A DNA stretch of 56,189 nucleotides, from assembly GCA_001805965.1 (NCBI GenBank), contig MHHG01000032.1, positions 1 to 56,189 on the forward strand, in the 5' to 3' direction. The number at the start of each line of letters is the position of its first letter. The first letter of the stretch is position 1. The translations under genes and the position numbers were made by a program. The stretch is from Omnitrophica WOR_2 bacterium RIFOXYA2_FULL_38_17 (lineage in GTDB: Bacteria; Omnitrophota; Gorgyraeia; Zapsychrales; Zapsychraceae). This document shows, piece after piece, positions 3,186-55,693 of this stretch. The notes below the pieces were generated by a model. That model saw only the letters and a list, made by a program, of their open reading frames with translations. It ran no database searches and was not told the origin of the DNA.

Positions 3186-4574
3186 TTAGATCATTGTTCC
3201 TAATTCTTTTTCACAGTATTTATCGTATGTAACCCTTATCAATATATTTGCAGATACAAATGAGATAAAAACACAGAATACTATCGATAGAACATCCAAA
3301 ATAACCAACTGCATCAAAAGCATAGTTAACAAGCATAAACACATTCCATTAAAAATAACTGTTACAGCTTTTAAGCATGAGCTCATATATGCTATCCACG
3401 CCATGATCAGGTATCCATAAGCTCCTGTAAACAGCAAATAACTCCAAAACTTTACGGTCGCCATTATTCCAGCATTTAGCACCGCACTTGATATAACCGC
3501 AAAATAAACAACGAACAAAAACCAAAACAAAATTAAATCACGAAAGAACCCAAATCCTTTCTCTAGAATAAAAGTTCTTTTATCAATAGGCTTTAATGAA
3601 TCATATGCCCAATACATCATCTTTTTATAATTAGACCCCAAGGCTATCAGAACTGGTGCTACTGAAAGCAGCAGGAAGTTAAAATAAGCATTAGCAAAAA
3701 ACTCATTTCCAAATTGAAAAACCTTCAAAAAATATATGAATGCTGGCGTACCAAAGACTATCAAGCACCAGGTGCCCCTCATTTCCCTGTACTCATTAAT
3801 ATCCCAATGAATAGACCTGATCAATGCATTCTTGGCTCTCGGATATTTTGGATATACTGAATTTTTCTGTTTGCTCTTAAATATGTGTTTAAAGGGATTG
3901 AAAAAGCTATAAACCAAATTTGAAGCCCTGAGCTGATTTTTAAGCAAAGATTTTTCTGTCCATGACAAAAGAAATGGATATTCAAAGCTGTCCTCTTTTA
4001 TCTTCATAAGCCTAATTATCATAAAAACAAACAAGCTTATAATTGCAGCAACAATATAGATATTGTAGTGAGTGGTATTGCTTAGTTGCTCAACAAAAGC
4101 AAACGACTCTCCTGAAATAAGAAGACAGATCAAATACGCAAAGACAAGGACGGCTCCTATTGATAAAAACCCTAAATATACAATAAAAACTGCCATAAAA
4201 AGACAAGTAGTATGAACGCCGAACAATGCAGCTGATGAGATCTCAAAATTAACTTTCGTGCCTATCTCCCATATCCAAACGACAATGACAAAAAACACAA
4301 AAACCAAAAAAGCTACGACCAAGTGAGGCGCTCTATAACCTGGCAATATTGATGCACGATGATTTGCAAATTGGCGTTTCAAAACCAAACCCAGCATAAA
4401 ACATAACCACAGGCTGAATACAAACTGGACCGTGAACATTTCATTTGCATAAAAGCCTAATCTCATCTTGATAAATCCTTTGGATATTACAGATGAGGCT
4501 ATAAAACCAAGCGACAGCATTAAAAATGCTGGATTCCTAATTGACAATAATAATATTTGCGCATATTTTCTCAT
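3186..4574 (-). CDS. ABC transporter permease (multi-TM)
   Basis: 462 aa with about 10-12 hydrophobic segments; start overlaps the stop of the ABC ATPase. Confidence 0.7.
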   Translation of the reverse strand: MRKYAQILLLSIRNPAFLMLSLGFIASSVISKGFIKMRLGFYANEMFTVQFVFSLWLCFMLGLVLKRQFANHRASILPGYRAPHLVVAFLVFVFFVIVVWIWEIGTKVNFEISSAALFGVHTTCLFMAVFIVYLGFLSIGAVLVFAYLICLLISGESFAFVEQLSNTTHYNIYIVAAIISLFVFMIIRLMKIKEDSFEYPFLLSWTEKSLLKNQLRASNLVYSFFNPFKHIFKSKQKNSVYPKYPRAKNALIRSIHWDINEYREMRGTWCLIVFGTPAFIYFLKVFQFGNEFFANAYFNFLLLSVAPVLIALGSNYKKMMYWAYDSLKPIDKRTFILEKGFGFFRDLILFWFLFVVYFAVISSAVLNAGIMATVKFWSYLLFTGAYGYLIMAWIAYMSSCLKAVTVIFNGMCLCLLTMLLMQLVILDVLSIVFCVFISFVSANILIRVTYDKYCEKELGTMI

Positions 4575-5449
4575 CTATTTAGCTCCAAAAATATCTCTTC
4601 TAAATTCAAATTCTCAACTTGCACCTCTGCGTTAAATTTTGATTCCAACTGTTTTTTCATCCCTTCATTAAATCCGCGAACAGAAATGACCGCTTCGTTA
4701 TTTAATATTTCACAGCTTAAAACACCTTCAGCCTCAATGCTTTCTTTTATAGGGTCTTTTGAGGTAACCCTTAACCTCTTTACCTCATCTTTCAATTCAT
4801 CAAGCCCGCCACAAAAATCGATCTTTCCGTCTTTTAACAATGCTACTCTGTCAGCGACCCTTTCAAGGTCAGTTGTAATATGCGTTGAAAAAAATATGGT
4901 ACATTCTCTGTCAGCTACCAAATCCAGTATCATCTTTATAAACTGCCTTCTAGCAGCTGGATCAAGGCTTGCAACTGGCTCGTCAAAAACCAGCAATTCC
5001 GGCCTGTGGCCTAATGATAGAATTATTGATAATTTTTGAACCTGTCCTTCTGAAAGCATTCCAACTTTATCTGTTTCTTTTAATTCCCAAATTGAAACTA
5101 ATTTATTAACAAGCTCAGTATCCCAAACAGTATAAAACGTTTCCGTGTAATCTATCGCCTGTCTAACTGTTAACCAGGGATATATCCTGTCTGCTTGAGG
5201 CACATAACCTAACTTTTCTTTAGTCCCATTTTTAAATTTCAATGGATTATCACCGATTGTCACTACTTCACCCTTTTGAGGCTTGAGAAGCCCTAGCAGA
5301 CATTTAATTAAGGTCGTCTTTCCAGATCCATTTTTCCCCAACAAACCAAAAACAGATCCTTTGGGGACATTCAGTGACAAATCATTTAACACTGACTTTC
5401 CATTAAAATTTTTTGAAACACTTTTAACTTCAACGATAAAATCACTCAT
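4571..5449 (-). CDS. ABC transporter ATP-binding protein (YtrB-like)
   Basis: Walker A GKNGSGKTT, signature LSEGQ, Walker B LLVFDEP, H-loop STH. Confidence 0.95.
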   Translation of the reverse strand: MSDFIVEVKSVSKNFNGKSVLNDLSLNVPKGSVFGLLGKNGSGKTTLIKCLLGLLKPQKGEVVTIGDNPLKFKNGTKEKLGYVPQADRIYPWLTVRQAIDYTETFYTVWDTELVNKLVSIWELKETDKVGMLSEGQVQKLSIILSLGHRPELLVFDEPVASLDPAARRQFIKMILDLVADRECTIFFSTHITTDLERVADRVALLKDGKIDFCGGLDELKDEVKRLRVTSKDPIKESIEAEGVLSCEILNNEAVISVRGFNEGMKKQLESKFNAEVQVENLNLEEIFLELNR

Positions 5450-5846
5450 TGCCCTTCTCCTTTAGCAGCGATGTTAACATTTCAATAACTTTATTTGGTC
5501 TTAAAGACAATTGCTTTGATTTTGTTACTACTTCATTCAATATCGGAATTATTTCATTTTCTTTTTGCTCTAGGCTCTCTCCAGGAAGATCAGATTCCCT
5601 TACCTTCATGCCTTGGCCTCTAACAAACTCTAAAACGCCTTCCTTCTCTAATAATGAGTAAGCCTTTGATGCAGTCATTGGGTTAATCTCTAATTCAGTC
5701 GCAATTTGTCTTACAGACGGCAGGAATTCGCCTTTGGGAAGTTTTTTTGTTGCTATTAATATCTTTACTTGATCTATGATCTGTCTGTATATAGGGACTC
5801 CCGATGTTGTAGCTATCTGAAAATAATATTTTGCTTTCGATTCCAT
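5442..5846 (-). CDS. GntR-family regulator, YtrA subfamily
   Basis: GVPIYRQI...LPSVRQIATELEINPMTASKAYSLLEKEG...RGQG with a short C-terminal domain; first gene before an ABC transporter. Confidence 0.92.
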   Translation of the reverse strand: MESKAKYYFQIATTSGVPIYRQIIDQVKILIATKKLPKGEFLPSVRQIATELEINPMTASKAYSLLEKEGVLEFVRGQGMKVRESDLPGESLEQKENEIIPILNEVVTKSKQLSLRPNKVIEMLTSLLKEKGNE

Positions 5847-5948: not shown

Positions 5949-7970
5949 TTACTTGATAGCTTTTTCGATCTTTCTTTCAATTTTTCTTTTTATAAAGTCA
6001 GGAATGACACCTGTTGCAGCTTCTTTAAAGTCTGACTGCATCCATTGAAAGTTTATTTTATTTATACCGCCTAATAACCTAAACTCAAATGGAATAAATT
6101 GGCGATCATCCTTTATTCTCTTTAATAATGACCTGAACCGCTTTGATTCCTTCATCATGTCCTTATCAAATCCTAATTTAAAATCACTAGAAACATTAGA
6201 ATATTCTCTAAGCTTAAAATACCCATCAAGGATAATCTTTTTTGAATCCAAGTTCACATCATATATATCAAAATTGGTTTCATTAATAATAAATTTAAGA
6301 TTAACATTATATCCTTCTACAGCCCTGACCGATGACATATCAAAATAATCAGCCAGCCAATCTAAAAAGGAAGCATTAGCTAAATACCCATCATGAACTT
6401 CAAGGGCCCCATTGATATCAAAATCTGGGTAATTAGTTATATTCATGTTTGAATTTATCTTTCCTTTTAATATGGAAAAATCATATAACATGCCATCTAT
6501 CTTGTTAATATCCACTTCTTTAAGACTAATCTGGGCATTGCTTATATTTTTTTTATCTTTCGTATTTACGGTAATGTTAGACTCAATCTTCCCGCCGAAT
6601 ATTTTTGCATCGATATTTATAGTTTTTTTGTCTTTGTCCACCAGATCAATATATATTTTCGGGTCATTGAATTGAGCTTCCTGGATAACAGTGTCTTTCA
6701 GGAAATAAACATTAATTTTTTTAGCTTTAAATGAATATTTAGAATGGTTATTAAGGTCAGCAAAAACATCAGAGAAAGAGATACCTGTTGAATCCATATA
6801 TCCTCGTATGCCGCTATATTCTTCATAATTCAAAGCAAGATTGATATCAGCATTTAATATCCCGTGAGTTAAACTACCTGTCAAATTTAAAGACATATCC
6901 TGCACATTGTCTTTCCAATCATTATTTGACTTATAAAAATAAGCAATTGAAGAAATATCATAATTCAGCGAATCAGCTATTTCCACTTCACCACTCATTG
7001 AAATTGGAATATTATTAAACAGGCTGTTAAATCGCTCAATTTTTATAATATTTTTATTTATAGAGAATTCGCTATTAATATCTAAAACATGAATACTTCC
7101 AGCACTTATTTCCTTGAACTCCTTTGCTCCTATTCTAAGAAACATTCTATTTAAAACCTCTAATGCGTCAATAGAGCCTTCATTTGGGGTGCCATCATCA
7201 GATATATTTTTTTCTTCGGAAAATCCATACCCTTTCAAAAATATCCTATTTTTGTTTGAATGCCCATTAAGGCTAGCAAAAAAGGCACCTTCTTTTCGCA
7301 AATCAATTTTATTAAACACTAGTCCTTCATTTTCTGCTGCAGCACTTGCAATAAATTCAAGAGGCCTTTTATTTTCACAATCATTGTTTCCACATCGAAC
7401 AATATCGCCAGAAAAGCTTATAATTCCGAGTTCATTTTCAAAGTCAAAATTGAAATTTACTGAACTTTTATTATCAATTTCATCTTCCTCAACCATTCCA
7501 TTTTTAACAAGCACTCCCAGGCTTTGCCATTTTAGAGCATTAAATATATTTGCACCTTTTATCATCCTTTTTTTTAGATATATTAACTCGCTTTTGTCAT
7601 AAACTATTGGATCAAACATCTCAATCCTTGAAACATCGATCCTTTTTTCTAAAATCATTTTATAAACAGATAATGTCAACACTATCTTTGGCAAATACAC
7701 TTTTTTTTCGCTACCCAATCTTGTATTCTTTGAAACATATACACCGTTTAATATAAGCTTATGCGGCTCTAAAACCAAGATCTGATTGATTGAAACAAGT
7801 CTGCCTGCGGCTTTACTTAGAATTTTTTCTATATCCGGCTTAACTTTATTTAACGTATAATTAAATATCAAAACAGCTACAACAAAAATAACAACAACTG
7901 TTATTCCTGCTTTTGTTTTTCGATTAAAAGAATATACTTGCAATGTTTTCTTTCTCAACATAAAATTCAA
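5949..7970 (-). CDS. AsmA-like envelope protein
   Basis: N-terminal TM anchor, IEKILSKAAGRLVSI (AsmA/DUF748-like start), long beta-rich body, FGGKIESNI motif. Confidence 0.65.
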   Translation of the reverse strand: MNFMLRKKTLQVYSFNRKTKAGITVVVIFVVAVLIFNYTLNKVKPDIEKILSKAAGRLVSINQILVLEPHKLILNGVYVSKNTRLGSEKKVYLPKIVLTLSVYKMILEKRIDVSRIEMFDPIVYDKSELIYLKKRMIKGANIFNALKWQSLGVLVKNGMVEEDEIDNKSSVNFNFDFENELGIISFSGDIVRCGNNDCENKRPLEFIASAAAENEGLVFNKIDLRKEGAFFASLNGHSNKNRIFLKGYGFSEEKNISDDGTPNEGSIDALEVLNRMFLRIGAKEFKEISAGSIHVLDINSEFSINKNIIKIERFNSLFNNIPISMSGEVEIADSLNYDISSIAYFYKSNNDWKDNVQDMSLNLTGSLTHGILNADINLALNYEEYSGIRGYMDSTGISFSDVFADLNNHSKYSFKAKKINVYFLKDTVIQEAQFNDPKIYIDLVDKDKKTINIDAKIFGGKIESNITVNTKDKKNISNAQISLKEVDINKIDGMLYDFSILKGKINSNMNITNYPDFDINGALEVHDGYLANASFLDWLADYFDMSSVRAVEGYNVNLKFIINETNFDIYDVNLDSKKIILDGYFKLREYSNVSSDFKLGFDKDMMKESKRFRSLLKRIKDDRQFIPFEFRLLGGINKINFQWMQSDFKEAATGVIPDFIKRKIERKIEKAIK

Positions 7971-8448
7971 TCTTATCTATATAATAAACTGCTTTATGGT
8001 TACGATTAAGCGGCGATTCAAATAAATATTCTTTTGTATTATCAAAAATAAAACTATTTCTTTTAACTAACTTAATCTCTTCTTCTATTCCAAGGATCAA
8101 GCTTTCATTTTTTTCAATTTTCGCTAATTTCATTAAGTAAACATACGCAAAAAGCCTTCCGTTTTCATCCTTTGAAACCTTTAAATATTCTTTAAAATAG
8201 TTTTCAGAGCTTTTATAATCAGCTATTTGATAATAATATTCGGCTATAGCGAACAGCGCTTTGCGTTTATAGCTTTCCTTTGGGTTAGCTGAAAGAACTT
8301 TACGATATCCCATAAAAGCAAAGTCTGGATGTCCCATTTTTGCATCCTTTTCTGCCTTTTTAAATATCTTTGTCATATCAGCAGCAAAAACAAAGCTATG
8401 CATCGCAAAAGTCAAAATCACAAGAAAGATTGTCACTCTAAATTTCAT
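7924..8448 (-). CDS. Secreted TPR-repeat protein
   Basis: True start is probably MKFRV at 8448 (RBS GGAG), because the track's longer start lies inside the riboswitch. Signal peptide ending ...SFVFAAD; TPR-like ALFAIAEYYYQIADYKSSENYFKEYL. Confidence 0.75.
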   Translation of the reverse strand: MKFRVTIFLVILTFAMHSFVFAADMTKIFKKAEKDAKMGHPDFAFMGYRKVLSANPKESYKRKALFAIAEYYYQIADYKSSENYFKEYLKVSKDENGRLFAYVYLMKLAKIEKNESLILGIEEEIKLVKRNSFIFDNTKEYLFESPLNRNHKAVYYIDKIEFYVEKENIASIFF

Positions 8449-8460
8449 TCGTCTCTCCAT

Positions 8461-8500
8461 AAAAAAAACCGAACCATGACATAAAAAGCACATAGTTCGG
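8461..8500 (-). terminator. Intrinsic terminator (riboswitch expression platform)
   Basis: CCGAACUAUG/CAUGGUUCGG 10-bp stem followed by U8, between the aptamer and the start codon. Confidence 0.85.
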
Positions 8501-8510
8501 CCCACTTTTA

Positions 8511-8680
8511 ATAGCAGCAACCCGGCTATCCTGACTTTATGCCAGGACCCGTAGCTTTGCCTGTTCATTAATTAAAATGAACAGCTACTTACCTTTTAGG
8601 TTAGCAGGTCCCCACCTTACAGTCTGTGCTATTTTCTTAGCACATCAGCTCAAAGAGCTGGGGTTTGCCTTTTTTGCCAT
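8511..8680 (-). ncRNA. Cyclic-di-GMP-I (GEMM-I) riboswitch aptamer with two structured insertions
   Basis: Minus strand carries GGCAAACCC...ACU-GUAA-GGU-GGGGAC...GCAAAGCUACGGGUCCUG...CAGGAUAGCCGGGUUGC, with P1 AUGGCA/UGCUAU. Removing 8624-8660 and 8561-8607 leaves an 86-nt canonical-looking aptamer. Confidence 0.85.
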
Positions 8681-8798
8681 ACTTTCTTTTTCTAATACAA
8701 GTATACAATAATAAGAACAATAAAACCCAAATTAATACCTGGAATAATCTTTTAATCCCAACATCAATTTAGGCAATACATTTTTAACATGAAAAAAG

Positions 8799-9212
8799 CT
8801 ATTTTTTTCTGAATTTTATCAAATTATTGATCTGCTGGACTAATTCATCGGCAGGATGATCTCCAAATCTTACGCTCAATCTTTTAGTAACGCCTTTATC
8901 GACAATATCCTTAAGTTCATTTGTAATTCTCTCAAAAGACCCTACCAGCTCACTTGCAACCATAAAAGCCCATATTGTCACTATCACAAAGAAAAACCAC
9001 ATTACCATCAATATGAGAATTGTTACATGGTTAATAAAGTCATACGATTGTGCAGAAGGAAATACCGCATTAAACAATTGAGGCCTATAATGAATAATTA
9101 TAGCAGTCCCAATTATATTCATAATAAGTAAAGATATAAATGGTACCGCAATAATTCGCCTTTGATATTTATTTGTTCTTAAAGGATTTTGCCTCACTGA
9201 ACTTTGCGCCAT
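8799..9212 (-). CDS. Small two-TM membrane protein with HAMP-like C-terminus
   Basis: Two TM helices followed by FERITNEL...LSVRFGD...LVQQINNLI; RBS AAGGAGGAG. Confidence 0.7.
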   Translation of the reverse strand: MAQSSVRQNPLRTNKYQRRIIAVPFISLLIMNIIGTAIIIHYRPQLFNAVFPSAQSYDFINHVTILILMVMWFFFVIVTIWAFMVASELVGSFERITNELKDIVDKGVTKRLSVRFGDHPADELVQQINNLIKFRKK

Positions 9213-9953: not shown

Positions 9954-10484
9954 CTACAATATCCCCTTTTTAGTTAGCGATGTCATAAGCCTTGAAATTG
10001 ATTTTATTTCAGCATCTACCAGATCTAGGTCATGATCTAAAATAATATGAAGGTGGTCCTTCATAGTGCTAACTTTGTCTTTAACATGCAGCAACTCGTT
10101 TCTTATTCTCCTTAAAAAAATAACTCTTCCCCTTAACTGCCTTCTTGCAATATCCTTCTCAACATAATGTAAAAAATAAAGGGAGAGATCTATATTGAAA
10201 TATGGCCGCTCAATAGACAAAAAGCTTTCAGTTATCAAATGATCAAATATCTTGTCTCCTTTTGGAGTTAAAGAATAGACATACTTTTCAGGAAACTTCC
10301 CTTCTCTGCCAATATCTTTCTTAATAAGGCCCAACTTCTCCATTTTTTTCAATGGATAATAAATGGATTTTATCTTAAGGCCAACAAATGGGAACATATC
10401 CTCCTCTATTTGACGTTTTATTTCATATCCATGCTTTGGCCCGTCTTTCAACAGCCCTAAAAATAACAATTCATGTTCTATCAT
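9954..10484 (-). CDS. PadR-family transcriptional regulator
   Basis: LGLLKDGPKHGYEI...SIYYPLKKME...KYVYSLTPKG. Confidence 0.9.
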   Translation of the reverse strand: MIEHELLFLGLLKDGPKHGYEIKRQIEEDMFPFVGLKIKSIYYPLKKMEKLGLIKKDIGREGKFPEKYVYSLTPKGDKIFDHLITESFLSIERPYFNIDLSLYFLHYVEKDIARRQLRGRVIFLRRIRNELLHVKDKVSTMKDHLHIILDHDLDLVDAEIKSISRLMTSLTKKGIL

Positions 10485-10540
10485 AATATCCCTATATCTT
10501 CATGTGCGCTAAATTTTTAACTTATCGGTACTTCATAAAA

Positions 10541-11560
10541 TCATATCTGGATTTCTTCATACTTTTCAGTATACTCAATGACCTGTCGCATCATACTGAC
10601 CGCACCTTCAGGATATTTCCCAACAGCAGTTTCCCCTGAAAGCATAACATAGTCAGTCTGATCCAGAACAGCATTAGCAACATCTGACACTTCTGCCCTG
10701 GTTGGCCTATTATGTTCAGTCATGCTTTCCAGCATTTGTGTTGCTGTAATAGCAATCTTCTTTTTTCTAATTGTCCTTAAAATTAAATACTTCTGCACTA
10801 TTGGAATTTTGTATACTGGCAAAGTCACCCCGAGATCTCCTCTTGCAACAATGATCCCATCACAAGCATCAAGGATTTCATCTACGTTTAAAACTCCTTC
10901 TTCATTTTCAATTTTAGCAATAATCTTACAATCTGGAAGTTTTGGCCTTACGAGTTTGCATATATTCAGAATATCGTTTTTATTCCGAACAAAAGATTGT
11001 GCAATAAAATCCACTTTGTTCTTAATGCCAAACTTAATATCATGCTTGTCCTTATCCGTCAGAATATCAGACCTGAGTTTTAAATCAGGGATATTTATAC
11101 CTTTTCGCTCTTTTAGGATTCCCCCTTGCACAACTTCTAGTTTTAGCTTGCCATCTTTTCGCCCCACAACTTTTAAATGAATAGTTCCATCATCAATAAA
11201 AACATCATAACCTTTTTTGATTTTATTAATATTCTCATCACAATCAAAAGGAATATGGCTTATTTCATCAACTTCATCCTTAGACATAAAAAATATCATG
11301 CCTTTCTGAAGGTTTTTAGGCTCGCTAAATTTTCCAGCCCTTATTCGATATCCTTCAAGGTCCTGAAGTATTTTCACATTTGTTTTATACTTGTGATTAA
11401 CCTTTCTTATAAGATTCAATGTTTTTTGATGCTCAGAATGAGTTCCATGAGAAAAATTAAGTCTAGATGCATTCATTCCTTTTGAAGCCATATTATACAA
11501 CACTTTTTCACTTGAGCTAGCTGGTCCTAACGTTGCCAATATTCTTGTATCTCTTTTCAT
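10541..11560 (-). CDS. pyk: Pyruvate kinase (short form lacking the C-terminal regulatory domain)
   Basis: TLGPAS, RLNFSHG, IIAKIE, VARGDLG, TATQMLESM, PTRAEVSDVANA, MLSGETA; only 339 aa. Confidence 0.95.
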   Translation of the reverse strand: MKRDTRILATLGPASSSEKVLYNMASKGMNASRLNFSHGTHSEHQKTLNLIRKVNHKYKTNVKILQDLEGYRIRAGKFSEPKNLQKGMIFFMSKDEVDEISHIPFDCDENINKIKKGYDVFIDDGTIHLKVVGRKDGKLKLEVVQGGILKERKGINIPDLKLRSDILTDKDKHDIKFGIKNKVDFIAQSFVRNKNDILNICKLVRPKLPDCKIIAKIENEEGVLNVDEILDACDGIIVARGDLGVTLPVYKIPIVQKYLILRTIRKKKIAITATQMLESMTEHNRPTRAEVSDVANAVLDQTDYVMLSGETAVGKYPEGAVSMMRQVIEYTEKYEEIQI

Positions 11561-54561: not shown

Positions 54562-55693
54562 CGTATTTCTTCACAAAGAACTCCAAAGCCTTTGTACCTC
54601 TGGACAAGGTGCTTAAATTAATGTATTCGTCGGTTGAATGCGCTGTGCCATGCGCACCAAACCCCGTCGCAAAAGCTGGAATTTTATATTTCTTAAAGAA
54701 CGTAATGACTGTCGCACCTTCTGAACCTTTTAGTATTGCTTTGGCCTTGCTCTTACGGACAGCATCACCCCACAATTTAACGAATTTATTATTTAAATCA
54801 ATCTCGTAAGGGTCCTGAAGGTCATCAATGATCACCTTTGACCTCTTTGCTTCAGACCTAGCAATTTGTTTAATTTCAGCCAATAACTCTTTAGGATCCA
54901 TGCCCGGCAGAAATCTAAGATCAACCGAAAATTCACAAAAATCGGCAACCATGTTAACCTTGTCCCCGCCTTTGATAGTCCCAATATTGATCGTCGGAGG
55001 CTTAAGGAAAAGATGCTTTTTATATTTAAACCTTATTTTCTTTAATTTTGTAATGATCCTAGCCGAAGCTTCAATTGCATTTTCACCGAGCCAATTGTAG
55101 GCGCCATGTGCTTTCTTTCCAAAAACCTGCACCCGCATGTGAAACAATCCTTTTTGTGCGATTATAGTATTAAATTCATCAGAATCCAGAACGAGCGCAA
55201 ATCCCGGTGCAAGCACCTTTTTTTCAAGAAGAGGAATAATCCCGTAATAACTTCCGGTTTCTTCATCTACCGTAGCTGCCATTACTATATCTTTTTTTGG
55301 CTTAAAGCCATCTTCAACAAGGCTGCGCATTACTTCCATTGCACTCGCAAGATTTCCCTTGTCATCGGTTGTACCCCTGCCGTAAAGCTTGTTTCCAACG
55401 ATCTGCGATCCAAATGGATCAAATTTCCACCCGTCGCCAATAGGAACCGTATCGAAATGCGGAGTTAAAAGCAACGACTCTTTCTTTGCCCTGTTCCTCG
55501 GCATGCTTCCTTTTAGCGTCGCAACTATATTCGGGCGATTTTTTGCGTAAGTATAAGTCTTAACATCAATTCCAAGCGACCGCATGTCGGTTTCAATAAA
55601 TTTTGCTAATTTTAATTCTTTTCCGGGAGGATTTTGTGAGTCGATGGATAAAACTTCTTGTGTAAGTGCTATTAATCTTTTTTTGTTGATCAT
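54548..55693 (-). CDS. M20-family metallopeptidase/deacylase (ArgE/DapE-like)
   Basis: HFDTVP, YGRGTTDDKG, VDEETG, GKKAHG, AHSTDE. Confidence 0.92.
   Translation of the reverse strand: MINKKRLIALTQEVLSIDSQNPPGKELKLAKFIETDMRSLGIDVKTYTYAKNRPNIVATLKGSMPRNRAKKESLLLTPHFDTVPIGDGWKFDPFGSQIVGNKLYGRGTTDDKGNLASAMEVMRSLVEDGFKPKKDIVMAATVDEETGSYYGIIPLLEKKVLAPGFALVLDSDEFNTIIAQKGLFHMRVQVFGKKAHGAYNWLGENAIEASARIITKLKKIRFKYKKHLFLKPPTINIGTIKGGDKVNMVADFCEFSVDLRFLPGMDPKELLAEIKQIARSEAKRSKVIIDDLQDPYEIDLNNKFVKLWGDAVRKSKAKAILKGSEGATVITFFKKYKIPAFATGFGAHGTAHSTDEYINLSTLSRGTKALEFFVKKYDETC

What the first reader, a model, noticed from the sequence alone, without database searches (positions are those of the whole stretch)
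8461..8680. Split c-di-GMP-I riboswitch: canonical aptamer interrupted by two twin-hairpin insertions
Seen on the minus strand: AUGGCAAAAAAGGCAAACCC [37-nt insert, 8660-8624] ACUGUAAGGUGGGGAC [47-nt insert, 8607-8561] GCAAAGCUACGGGUCCUGGCAUAAAGUCAGGAUAGCCGGGUUGCUGCUAU, then a U8 terminator. Without the inserts this is an 86-nt canonical GEMM-I fold: P1 (AUGGCA/UGCUAU), a 6-bp P2b closed by a GUAA tetraloop, a paired CCUG/CAGG receptor in P3, and equivalents of Vc2 ligand nucleotides G20, A47 and C92 (G20 predicts c-di-GMP rather than 3'3'-cGAMP). Each insert folds as two self-contained hairpins: CAGCUC/GAGCUG with UGUGCUA/UAGCACA, and CUGCUAACCU/AGGUAAGUAG with CUGUUCAUU/AAUGAACAG. They turn P2 into multi-way junctions and double the aptamer to 170 nt while keeping the core intact. 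I know of no described variant with this architecture, and covariance searches may miss or truncate it. Inference: the added arms may supply a second input (protein, temperature or ligand) or tune co-transcriptional folding.
Basis: partly seen in the sequence, partly recalled or inferred. Interest (0 to 1): 0.88.

Follow-up and report, generated by a model that had tools for sequence, protein, structure and literature searches.

The report
Expanded c-di-GMP riboswitch with four extra hairpins
This is a real c-di-GMP-sensing RNA switch whose known core carries two pairs of extra hairpins at fixed sites, and both add-ons recur in related uncultured bacteria, so it is a conserved, apparently undescribed variant of a well-known switch.

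Summary
Window 8680-8511 (minus strand) is a 170-nt c-di-GMP-I (GEMM-I) aptamer. All conserved core motifs are present. It is interrupted by a 37-nt and a 47-nt insert, each forming two hairpins, and is followed by an intrinsic terminator, a ribosome-binding site and an ORF. Rfam finds nothing at gathering score (best 33.1 bits against a cut-off of 35).

The architecture is not a one-off. The second insert, between GGGAC and GCAAAGC, recurs in at least 51 distinct sequences, mostly from Omnitrophota and Planctomycetia records. Every stem pair of both hairpins covaries. The first insert lies in the 5' strand of P1a, which keeps 6 bp in total. It recurs in 18 aligned sequences, with or without the second insert, and also covaries. 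Eight sequences carry both inserts.

The hairpins are conserved in shape but hardly in sequence. This favours a scaffold or folding role and argues against a second ligand or protein input.

The terminator does not overlap the aptamer, so I infer, without proof, an OFF switch. Six literature searches found no description of either insert.

Verdict: a new variant of a known kind, of moderate interest.

The parts
8675..8680 (-). P1 5' strand, AUGGCA. It pairs with 8516-8511.
   Evidence: sequence. All 6 pairs are standard. P1 covaries in the alignments.
8664..8674 (-). Junction AAAAAG, then GC of the 2-bp stem, then AAA. The G at 8669 is the equivalent of the ligand-contacting 'G20'. G8668 and C8667 pair with C8559 and G8560.
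   Evidence: Aligned to the consensus AAAGGCAAA. The 2-bp stem is invariant, GC/CG in 19 of 19 rows. The residue numbering is recalled.
8661..8663 (-). Lower half of P1a, 5' strand CCC. It pairs with GGG at 8613-8611.
   Evidence: 94.7% of cells in the lower helix are paired.
8646..8660 (-). Insert 1, hairpin 1 (hp1): CAGCUC UUU GAGCUG.
   Evidence: In 18 aligned carriers, 6 of 6 pairs change on both sides and 93.2% of cells are paired.
8625..8644 (-). Insert 1, hairpin 2 (hp2): UGUGCUA AGAAAA UAGCACA. Single-base linkers flank it at 8645 (A) and 8624 (G).
   Evidence: 7 of 7 pairs change on both sides and 92.6% of cells are paired.
8614..8623 (-). Upper half of P1a with its tetraloop: ACU GUAA GGU.
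   Evidence: 3 of 3 pairs covary and 96.3% of cells are paired. Lower plus upper P1a make 6 bp, as in canonical aptamers.
8608..8610 (-). GAC, the 3' side of the conserved internal loop of P1a.
   Evidence: In 51 unique carriers the three positions are G 100%, A 98% and C 100%, though the search pattern partly enforced this.
8585..8607 (-). Insert 2, hairpin A (hpA): CUGCUAACCU AAA AGGUAAGUAG, with one A.A mismatch.
   Evidence: 9 of 9 modelled pairs change on both sides and 95.6% of cells are paired. Repeated on a second set of loci.
8561..8584 (-). Insert 2, hairpin B (hpB): CUGUUCAUU UUAAUU AAUGAACAG.
   Evidence: 9 of 9 pairs change on both sides and 95.0% of cells are paired. In the second set, 9 of 9 pairs and 92.9%. 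The closing C-G pair is about 90% conserved.
8517..8560 (-). GC (3' side of the 2-bp stem), AAA (with the 'A47' equivalent), the P1b hairpin at 8556-8519, then GC (with the 'C92' equivalent at 8517).
   Evidence: Aligned to the family consensus. The window has A, not G, at the position that defines the GGC variant.
8511..8516 (-). P1 3' strand, UGCUAU.
   Evidence: G044 has U-G where the window has U-A, so the pair is kept.
8461..8500 (-). Intrinsic terminator: stem CCGAACUAUG (8500-8491) with CAUGGUUCGG (8478-8469), a 12-nt loop, and U8 (8468-8461).
   Evidence: Folds at -18.9 kcal/mol. Every stem pair has probability 0.996 or higher in the ensemble. The simple scan missed it because its loop limit is 8.
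8475..8490 (-). Candidate anti-terminator partner: UGCUUUUU (8490-8483) and UGUCAUG (8481-8475). It is complementary to 8681-8675 and 8673-8666 of the aptamer's 5' strand.
   Evidence: A 15-bp duplex at -15.8 kcal/mol. 6 of 1000 shuffles and 0.2% of 1500 genomic 30-mers do as well. Its role is inferred, not shown.
7924..8458 (-). Ribosome-binding site GGAGAG (8458-8453) and the first regulated ORF (8448-7924, 174 aa). The ORF has a signal-peptide-like N-terminus and weak TPR/BamD-like similarity.
   Evidence: All Pfam TPR hits are below cut-off (best E 0.025). BamD model: 24.5 bits against a cut-off of 81.4.
5949..7970 (-). Second ORF (673 aa), weakly AsmA-like and probably in the same operon.
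   Evidence: Pfam AsmA: 25.1 bits against a cut-off of 29.8.

Best explanation
Window 8680-8511 (minus strand) is a working c-di-GMP-I (GEMM-I) riboswitch aptamer that carries two conserved structural add-ons.

Add-on 1 is a pair of hairpins set into the 5' strand of helix P1a, after its third base pair. It turns P1a into a four-way junction, but P1a still totals 6 bp under its GNRA loop.

Add-on 2 is a pair of flush hairpins set between the GAC of P1a's conserved internal loop and the 2-bp GC stem, a few nucleotides from the ligand pocket.

Shown here: both add-ons are conserved in position and shape but hardly in sequence.

Inferred: the hairpins act as structural scaffolds or folding aids, comparable to expansion segments, and leave the c-di-GMP pocket intact.

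The aptamer is followed by a separate intrinsic terminator, a ribosome-binding site, and an operon for a TPR-like and an AsmA-like envelope protein.

Inferred: because the terminator does not overlap the aptamer, bound c-di-GMP probably locks P1 and lets the terminator form, switching expression OFF. Without ligand, the aptamer's 5' strand can instead pair with the terminator loop and 3' arm, allowing read-through.
For: Core identity:
- Rfam aligns the element end to end to the c-di-GMP-I clan (30.9 bits, E 1.5e-05).
- The window has G, A and C at the three ligand-contact equivalents.
- The own genome holds 8 further c-di-GMP-I aptamers above the cut-off, and 45 of 45 genomes in the family have matches.

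Add-on 2:
- Model R1, built from G017 in another genus, scores the window 61.9 bits. Five canonical aptamers of the own genome score 19.5-48.6 bits.
- 56 of the 76 aligned rows, 51 of them unique, carry both hairpins.
- hpA has 9 of 9 pairs, and hpB 9 of 9 pairs, that change on both sides. About 95% of cells are paired, against 31-45% when the partners are slid.
- A second set of loci repeats this result.
- In the window's order, model R1 confirmed 20 of the 27 pattern places found in 168 genomes. The reversed control pattern gave 3 hits.

Add-on 1:
- 15 places in 14 of 401 genomes of the phylum carry it alone, with 0 control hits.
- G209 and 5 metagenome contigs carry both add-ons.
- In 19 aligned rows, hp1 has 6 of 6 pairs, hp2 7 of 7 and upper P1a 3 of 3 that change on both sides, with 92.6-96.3% of cells paired.

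Selection within the genus: 9 of 11 differences between G000 and G044 lie in unpaired columns (P = 0.001).

Fold energy: the proposed fold is -59.2 kcal/mol, against an unconstrained minimum of -64.0.

Not a mobile repeat: the own genome holds no other copy of either insert.

Transcription hint: a 178-nt contig from an RNA library equals window 8499-8676 with 0 differences.

Platform: the terminator folds at -18.9 kcal/mol. The competing 15-bp duplex is -15.8 kcal/mol, matched by 6 of 1000 shuffles. The state with that duplex enforced is -77.2 kcal/mol, against -81.8 for aptamer plus terminator.
Against: - No ligand binding or termination assay exists.
- Both Rfam models score below their gathering cut-offs (33.1 against 35; 30.9 against 59).
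- The covariation counts come from alignments fitted to my own hand-drawn structures, which leans them towards those structures. The loci were collected with patterns that fix the core motifs, so core conservation is partly enforced.
- In equilibrium folding the terminator forms with probability near 1 whatever the aptamer does. No computed switch is therefore shown.
- The proposed anti-terminator is long-range and AU-rich.
- In G017 a different pairing looks likelier to me, between the 3' side of P1 and the terminator loop. I read this by eye.
- The RNA-library contig could derive from contaminating DNA, and contigs cannot show transcript ends.
- The TPR and AsmA labels rest on hits below cut-off.
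Confidence: 0.8

Rival explanations
1. Short-aptamer reading. The true aptamer is only 8603-8512. Its 5' half would be AACCUAAAAGGUAA inside 'insert 2', with the CUGUUCAUU hairpin serving as P1a. Everything upstream would be unrelated leader hairpins or the remnant of a duplicated 5' half.
For: In whole-genome mode both Rfam models prefer this alignment: RF01051 at 33.1 bits on 8603-8513 and RF03167 at 29.3 bits on 8602-8512.
Against: - In that alignment 2 of the 3 P1 pairs are non-standard, and there is no GNRA loop.
- The long reading has a 6-bp P1 and the exact GGCAAAC...GUAA...GGGGAC motif.
- The long reading scores 61.9 bits with model R1.
- hpA in the 51 relatives shows no conserved AAAGG-like sequence, so the resemblance in the window is a coincidence.
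- The upstream part is conserved with compensated stems in 18 carriers.
Confidence: 0.04
2. Second-input reading. The added arms bind a protein, a second ligand or another RNA, or they melt with temperature, which would make the element a two-signal sensor.
For: - The arms sit at fixed sites next to the ligand pocket and are kept across classes of the phylum.
- hp1 often reads UCCGCC...GGCGGA, followed by a single A linker.
- The closing C-G pair of hpB is about 90% conserved.
Against: - Most inserted positions have a commonest base of only 33-71%.
- The loops vary from 0 to over 20 nt.
- No unpaired nucleotide in the inserts is conserved.
- The genes downstream are unrelated to one another, so no common partner is suggested.
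Confidence: 0.1
3. Decayed element. It is a former riboswitch disrupted by insertions and no longer ligand-responsive. The terminator would act constitutively, or as a leaky attenuator.
For: - Both Rfam scores are below cut-off.
- The terminator is predicted to form regardless of aptamer state.
Against: - All core motifs are intact.
- Substitutions between G000 and G044 avoid the stems (P = 0.001).
- The same two insert sites recur with compensatory changes in distant lineages.
- P1a keeps exactly 6 bp across carriers.
Confidence: 0.04
4. Same aptamer, opposite polarity. c-di-GMP binding prevents termination or opens the ribosome-binding site, so the element would be an ON switch, as Weinberg 2007 proposed for many GEMM elements.
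For: Weinberg 2007 (PMC1950547, passages read) reports 78 of 322 GEMM elements with terminators that overlap the second hairpin, which implies ON switches.
Against: - Here the terminator stem begins 10 nt after the end of P1 and shares no nucleotide with the aptamer.
- The aptamer and terminator therefore co-exist, at -81.8 kcal/mol.
- The only strong competitor of the terminator uses the aptamer's own 5' strand.
Confidence: 0.25

Closest known systems
c-di-GMP-I riboswitch (GEMM-I; Rfam RF01051; the Vibrio cholerae Vc2 aptamer is the structural reference, recalled)
   Same: - The same core: A-rich junction + GGCAAAC, a 6-bp P1a with a GNRA loop, GGGAC, GCAAAGC, the P1b hairpin, and AGCCGGGUUGC closing into P1.
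- The same 5'-UTR position, ahead of a terminator.
- The same kind of envelope-related cargo.
   Different: - 84 extra nucleotides form four hairpins at two sites that the published consensus shows as continuous. Those sites are inside P1a and inside its 'highly conserved' 3-nt internal loop (Weinberg 2007).
- It scores below the gathering cut-off.
c-di-GMP-I-GGC variant (Rfam RF03167)
   Same: It is the best-scoring Rfam model on the window (30.9 bits), probably because it also models P1.
   Different: - The variant consensus reads GCGAAGC, where the window reads GCAAAGC. The window therefore has the canonical A at the variant-defining position.
- The score is far below the cut-off of 59.
GEMM-Ib 3',3'-cGAMP riboswitches of Geobacter (recalled: an A replaces G20)
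   Same: The same overall fold family.
   Different: The window has G at the equivalent position, 8669. c-di-GMP is therefore the expected ligand. This was not tested.
Tip insertions in P1b of c-di-GMP-I aptamers in the same genomes
   Same: These are also extra helices added to the same aptamer in the same lineage. An example is own-genome L007, with a 64-nt insertion. Many family hits are 135-147 nt long.
   Different: - Those extend a hairpin tip, far from the pocket, and still score 57 bits or more.
- The window's inserts break into a helix strand and an internal loop, and they create multi-way junctions.

Membership tests
c-di-GMP-I riboswitch (RF01051 / clan CL00126) | Score at or above the curated Rfam gathering cut-off | tested here: not met
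   The whole window gives 0 gathering hits. RF01051 scores 33.1 bits against 35, on a truncated alignment. RF03167 scores 30.9 bits against 59. The shortfall comes from a 103-nt insertion that replaces 19 model positions.
c-di-GMP-I riboswitch (RF01051 / clan CL00126) | Conserved core sequence blocks: AAAGGCAAAC, GGGAC, GCAAAGC, and AGCC.GG.UGC | tested here: met
   All are present in order at 8672-8663, 8612-8608, 8560-8554 and 8527-8517. They are aligned to the consensus.
c-di-GMP-I riboswitch (RF01051 / clan CL00126) | First hairpin made of a 2-bp stem, a 3-nt internal loop, a 6-bp stem and a GNRA loop (Weinberg 2007) | tested here: met
   The 2-bp GC/GC stem, AAA/GAC loop, 3+3 bp P1a and GUAA loop are all present. 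However, two hairpins interrupt the 6-bp stem and two more interrupt the internal loop.
c-di-GMP-I riboswitch (RF01051 / clan CL00126) | Second hairpin (P1b) joined to the first by AAA and closed by P1 | tested here: met
   GC-AAA-GCUACGGGUCCUG...CAGGAUAGCCGGGUU, with a 6-bp P1.
c-di-GMP-I riboswitch (RF01051 / clan CL00126) | Ligand-contact nucleotides (G20, A47 and C92 of Vc2; the numbering is recalled) | tested here: met
   G8669, the first A of GC-AAA-GC, and C8517 match the consensus letters in the alignments.
c-di-GMP-I riboswitch (RF01051 / clan CL00126) | Selective binding of c-di-GMP with a structural response | not testable with these tools
   This needs in-line probing, ITC or a reporter assay.
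c-di-GMP-I riboswitch (RF01051 / clan CL00126) | Position in a 5' leader with an expression platform | tested here: met
   Terminator at 8500-8461, ribosome-binding site at 8458-8453 and ATG at 8448.
c-di-GMP-I-GGC variant (RF03167) | G in place of the first A of the AAA linker (GCGAAGC) | tested here: not met
   The window reads GCAAAGC.
Subclass with twin hairpins between GGGAC and GCAAAGC (defined here, model R1) | Two flush hairpins at that site, with covarying stems | tested here: met
   The window scores 61.9 bits over the full length.
Subclass with twin hairpins in the 5' strand of P1a (defined here, model R2) | hp1, a 1-nt linker, hp2 and a 1-nt linker, inserted after P1a base pair 2-3, with P1a totalling 6 bp | tested here: met
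   The window is one of the two sequences the model was built from. The 16 other carriers in alignment A11 come from other genomes or contigs and align with covarying stems.

The most novel reading that the evidence does not exclude
The two twin-hairpin modules are not passive. By forming four-way junctions in P1a and beside the pocket, they would change how the aptamer responds. Possible effects include altered affinity or on-rate, a widened co-transcriptional decision window, a shift in ligand preference, or a docking site for a partner. That would make this a distinct functional class of cyclic-dinucleotide sensor, specific to Omnitrophota and Planctomycetota. The fully expanded 170-nt form in this window would be its most elaborate member.
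Probability: 0.15. Interest if true: 0.8.

Novelty: new variant of a known kind. Interest (0 to 1): 0.55.

Why it matters
c-di-GMP-I is one of the best-studied riboswitch classes. Its first hairpin and its 3-nt internal loop are described as highly conserved. This work shows that two defined sites in that hairpin accept conserved pairs of extra helices, singly or together, across many uncultured Omnitrophota and Planctomycetia.

Three things follow:
- It gives natural test cases for how peripheral helices shape aptamer folding, tetraloop docking and switching kinetics.
- It exposes a detection gap. 14 of 20 carriers of the second insert, and 6 of 8 doubly expanded aptamers, fall below Rfam's cut-off. 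c-di-GMP regulons in these phyla are therefore under-counted.
- It supplies the material for a subclass model that would recover them.

Tried and rejected
Alignments not used. The MAFFT alignments of expanded aptamers (A2, A3, A4) misaligned the variable hairpins and the 3' half. I did not use them for models. Instead I built models from near-identical pairs with hand-written structures (A5 gave R1, A8 gave R2) and let Infernal realign the rest.

Insert-deleted scoring not run. The Rfam and model tools take only stored sources, and I made no joined sequence. Natural relatives lacking one or both inserts served as stand-ins.

Mobile-repeat idea rejected. blastn-short of each insert against the own genome found only the locus itself, plus chance words of 12-20 nt.

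Short-aptamer reading rejected. See the rival explanations.

Pattern not counted as enrichment. It gave 17 places against 14 hits of the reversed control. Only the 10 matches in 9 loci that model R1 confirmed were used.

Metagenome scan. Of 106 stretches, 80 loci were listed, and only 5 are real expanded aptamers. The rest are chance matches.

Terminator scan. It found no minus-strand terminator because its loop limit is 8 and the loop here is 12. It also found no sigma-70-like promoter. The one site it did report is the complement of hp1.

Equilibrium folding. It shows no aptamer-dependent change in the terminator, so the switching logic stays an inference. A second candidate anti-terminator, between the 3' side of P1 and the terminator loop, gave a much poorer state of -70.5 kcal/mol.

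RNA run X1. Only 8499-8676 is covered. The lack of cover over the ORF and the upstream region is not evidence of anything.

Downstream proteins. Those of other doubly expanded aptamers share no similarity with each other or with the window's proteins. Pfam found nothing for 5 of 10 downstream ORFs, and diverse repeat proteins for the rest.

Literature. Searches found no paper describing inserted hairpins in c-di-GMP-I aptamers. For these I saw listings and abstracts only. For Weinberg 2007 I read passages. Its supplementary alignment of 322 GEMM sequences, which includes Planctomycetes, could show such inserts, but I could not see it. Papers in subscription journals are not in the library.
Full report
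**What is in the window.** On the minus strand, 8680-8511 reads in this order:
- AUGGCAAAAAAGGCAAACCC.
- A 37-nt insert (8660-8624).
- ACUGUAAGGUGGGGAC.
- A 47-nt insert (8607-8561).
- GCAAAGCUACGGGUCCUGGCAUAAAGUCAGGAUAGCCGGGUUGCUGCUAU.

What follows downstream:
- A hairpin, CCGAACUAUG / CAUGGUUCGG (8500-8469).
- U8 (8468-8461).
- GGAGAG (8458-8453).
- An ATG at 8448, which opens a 174-aa ORF.
- A 673-aa ORF.

The four inserted hairpins, P1, P1a and P1b all pair as proposed. One A.A is the only non-standard pair among 59. The proposed fold costs -59.2 kcal/mol, against an unconstrained minimum of -64.0. The 173-nt stretch folds better than all 200 shuffles (z = -4.46).

**Is it a c-di-GMP-I aptamer?** Rfam at gathering score finds nothing in the 56-kb window.
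- In E-value mode, the c-di-GMP-I-GGC model aligns 8678-8512 end to end (30.9 bits, E 1.5e-05). It places a 103-nt insertion where 19 positions are expected.
- In whole-genome mode, RF01051 and RF03167 prefer a truncated alignment starting inside the second insert (8603/8602-8512; 33.1 and 29.3 bits). In that alignment P1 is mostly unpaired and there is no GNRA loop.
- The window has the canonical A, not the G that defines the GGC variant. It also has G and C at the other two ligand-contact equivalents. The residue numbering is recalled.
- The same genome holds 8 ordinary c-di-GMP-I aptamers above the cut-off.
- All 45 genomes of its family have matches, and 150 matches are listed with 181 more not listed.

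**The second insert is a widespread, covarying module.**
- The same-genus genome G044 keeps the whole element.
- G017, from another genus, has no first insert. It does have two different hairpins at exactly the same place, between GGGGAC and GCAAAGC.
- A pattern requiring 25-55 nt at that place hit 27 places in 26 of 168 genomes of the order, against 3 hits for the reversed control.
Most records that turned out real are titled Candidatus Omnitrophota or Planctomycetia.
- I built model R1 from the G017 aptamer with a hand-written structure. R1 confirmed 20 of the 27 places in the order.
- R1 scored the window 61.9 bits (E 3e-18) over its full length, 8681-8512. Five canonical aptamers of the own genome scored 19.5-48.6 bits.
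- Of the 76 aligned rows, 56 carry both hairpins, and 51 of those are unique.
- In hpA and in hpB, 9 of 9 pairs change on both sides, and about 95% of cells are paired. Sliding the partners gives 31-45% paired, and 0 of 500 shuffles reach the observed covariation score.
- A second set of loci gave the same picture.
- These alignments are fitted to my structure, which favours it. The size of the effect and the variety of pair types nevertheless make the stems hard to doubt.

**The first insert is also a recurrent module.**
- A pattern allowing a long P1a found G209, in another class of the phylum. It has twin hairpins after GGCAAACC as well as the second insert.
- That pattern's raw count was no better than its control (17 places against 14). 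Only the matches confirmed by the model count.
- The single metagenome scan gave 5 more doubly expanded aptamers among the 80 loci fetched.
- A pattern for the first insert with a canonical GGGACGCAAAGC junction found 15 places in 14 of 401 genomes of the phylum, with 0 control hits.
- Model R2, built from the window and G044, aligned 19 rows, and 18 of them carry the first insert. hp1 has 6 of 6 pairs, hp2 7 of 7 and upper P1a 3 of 3 that change on both sides, with 92.6-96.3% of cells paired.
- In every carrier, lower plus upper P1a add up to 6 bp, split 3+3 or 2+4. Single-base linkers follow hp1 and hp2.
- This suggests that the two halves of P1a stack and keep the GNRA loop at its canonical height.

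There are therefore three natural forms: the first insert only, the second insert only, and both. The window belongs to the rarest, fully expanded form. I found eight such sequences: the window, G044, G209 and five contigs.

**Selection within the genus.** G000 and G044 differ at 11 of 174 columns.
- Nine differences are in unpaired columns (binomial P = 0.001).
- One turns a U-A pair into U-G.
- One opens the terminal pair of hpA.
- Within the inserts, 5 differences fall in 21 unpaired columns and 1 in 64 paired columns (Fisher P = 0.003).
- Neither insert has another copy in the genome, so they are not a mobile repeat.

**What the hairpins probably do.**
- Across 51 unique carriers, the inserted positions have a commonest base of only 33-71%. 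The exception is the closing C-G pair of hpB, at about 90%.
- The loops range from 0 to over 20 nt.
- hp1 often reads UCCGCC...GGCGGA but covaries.
- Conservation of shape and position without conserved unpaired bases points to a scaffold or folding role. It argues against a second ligand or protein site.
- Genes downstream of other carriers are unrelated to one another, including NHL and DUF4215 repeat proteins and unknowns. That is usual for this riboswitch class.

**Expression platform.**
- The terminator folds at -18.9 kcal/mol, and its stem pairs have probability 0.996 or higher.
- It begins 10 nt after P1 and shares no base with the aptamer. Bound aptamer and terminator can therefore co-exist, at -81.8 kcal/mol. 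This favours an OFF switch.
- The aptamer's 5' strand (8681-8666) can form a 15-bp duplex with the terminator loop and 3' arm (8490-8475), at -15.8 kcal/mol. Only 6 of 1000 shuffles and 0.2% of genomic 30-mers do as well. The whole-leader state with this duplex is -77.2 kcal/mol.
- This is a candidate anti-terminator, not a demonstrated one. Equilibrium folding shows no switch.

**Regulated genes.** The two ORFs look like envelope proteins, but only by hits below cut-off:
- TPR, E 0.025.
- BamD model, 24.5 bits against a cut-off of 81.4.
- AsmA, 25.1 bits against a cut-off of 29.8.

**Expression hint.** One metatranscriptomic run holds a 178-nt contig identical to window 8499-8676, which is the aptamer with both inserts. 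Contigs cannot show transcript ends, and DNA carry-over is possible.

**Known or new?**
- Weinberg 2007 describes the first GEMM hairpin as 2-bp and 6-bp stems around a highly conserved 3-nt internal loop, and it mentions no inserts (passages read).
- Six full-text searches found no description of such inserts.
- Rfam 15 has no model that captures the window.
- Rfam's cut-off is passed by only 6 of 20 loci carrying the second insert.
- It is passed by 9 of 10 loci carrying the first insert only, three of them through partial alignments.
- It is passed by 2 of 8 doubly expanded aptamers.
- Some carriers are therefore surely already among automatic c-di-GMP-I hits, unremarked.

**Verdict.** It is one member of a conserved set of variants with one or both inserts, not a singular oddity. 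I class it as a new variant of a known kind, of moderate interest.

Noticed in passing
L007 (own genome C57:59839-59984) and many family hits: There is a third expansion site. Some c-di-GMP-I aptamers carry a 64-nt insertion at the tip of P1b and still score 57 bits. Many hits in the family are 135-147 nt long.
   Followed up: partly
L036 1316-1396 and 1462-1590; L034 60-150, 272-411 and 525-661; L294 1376-1468 and 1488-1616; L170 1489-1642 and 1750-1900: Expanded aptamers often stand in tandem with canonical or other expanded aptamers in one leader. G003 has three in a row.
   Followed up: partly
Own genome C57:52330-52407, 55575-55652 and 59839-59984: Three c-di-GMP-I aptamers lie within 8 kb on one contig of the window's genome.
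   Followed up: no
window 8499-8676: A 178-nt contig from a groundwater metatranscriptome run (X1) is identical to the aptamer region. No other part of 7900-8800 was covered.
   Followed up: partly
window 8645-8661 (+ strand): The only 'terminator-like' site reported by the simple scan is the complement of inserted hairpin hp1 followed by a T-rich run. It is very likely an artefact of the riboswitch on the other strand.
   Followed up: yes
L028-L031, L067 and L122 (hpA reads GUCCCGUAAGGGAC): In one group of carriers, the 5' strand of hpA (GUCCC) is also complementary to the preceding GGGAC of P1a. This would allow a pairing that competes with the aptamer core. The window's own hpA lacks this feature.
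   Followed up: no
window 4571-5846 (-) and 9954-11560 (-): The neighbouring genes are a GntR-family regulator and an ABC ATPase downstream of the AsmA-like ORF, and a PadR-family regulator and pyruvate kinase upstream of the riboswitch.
   Followed up: no
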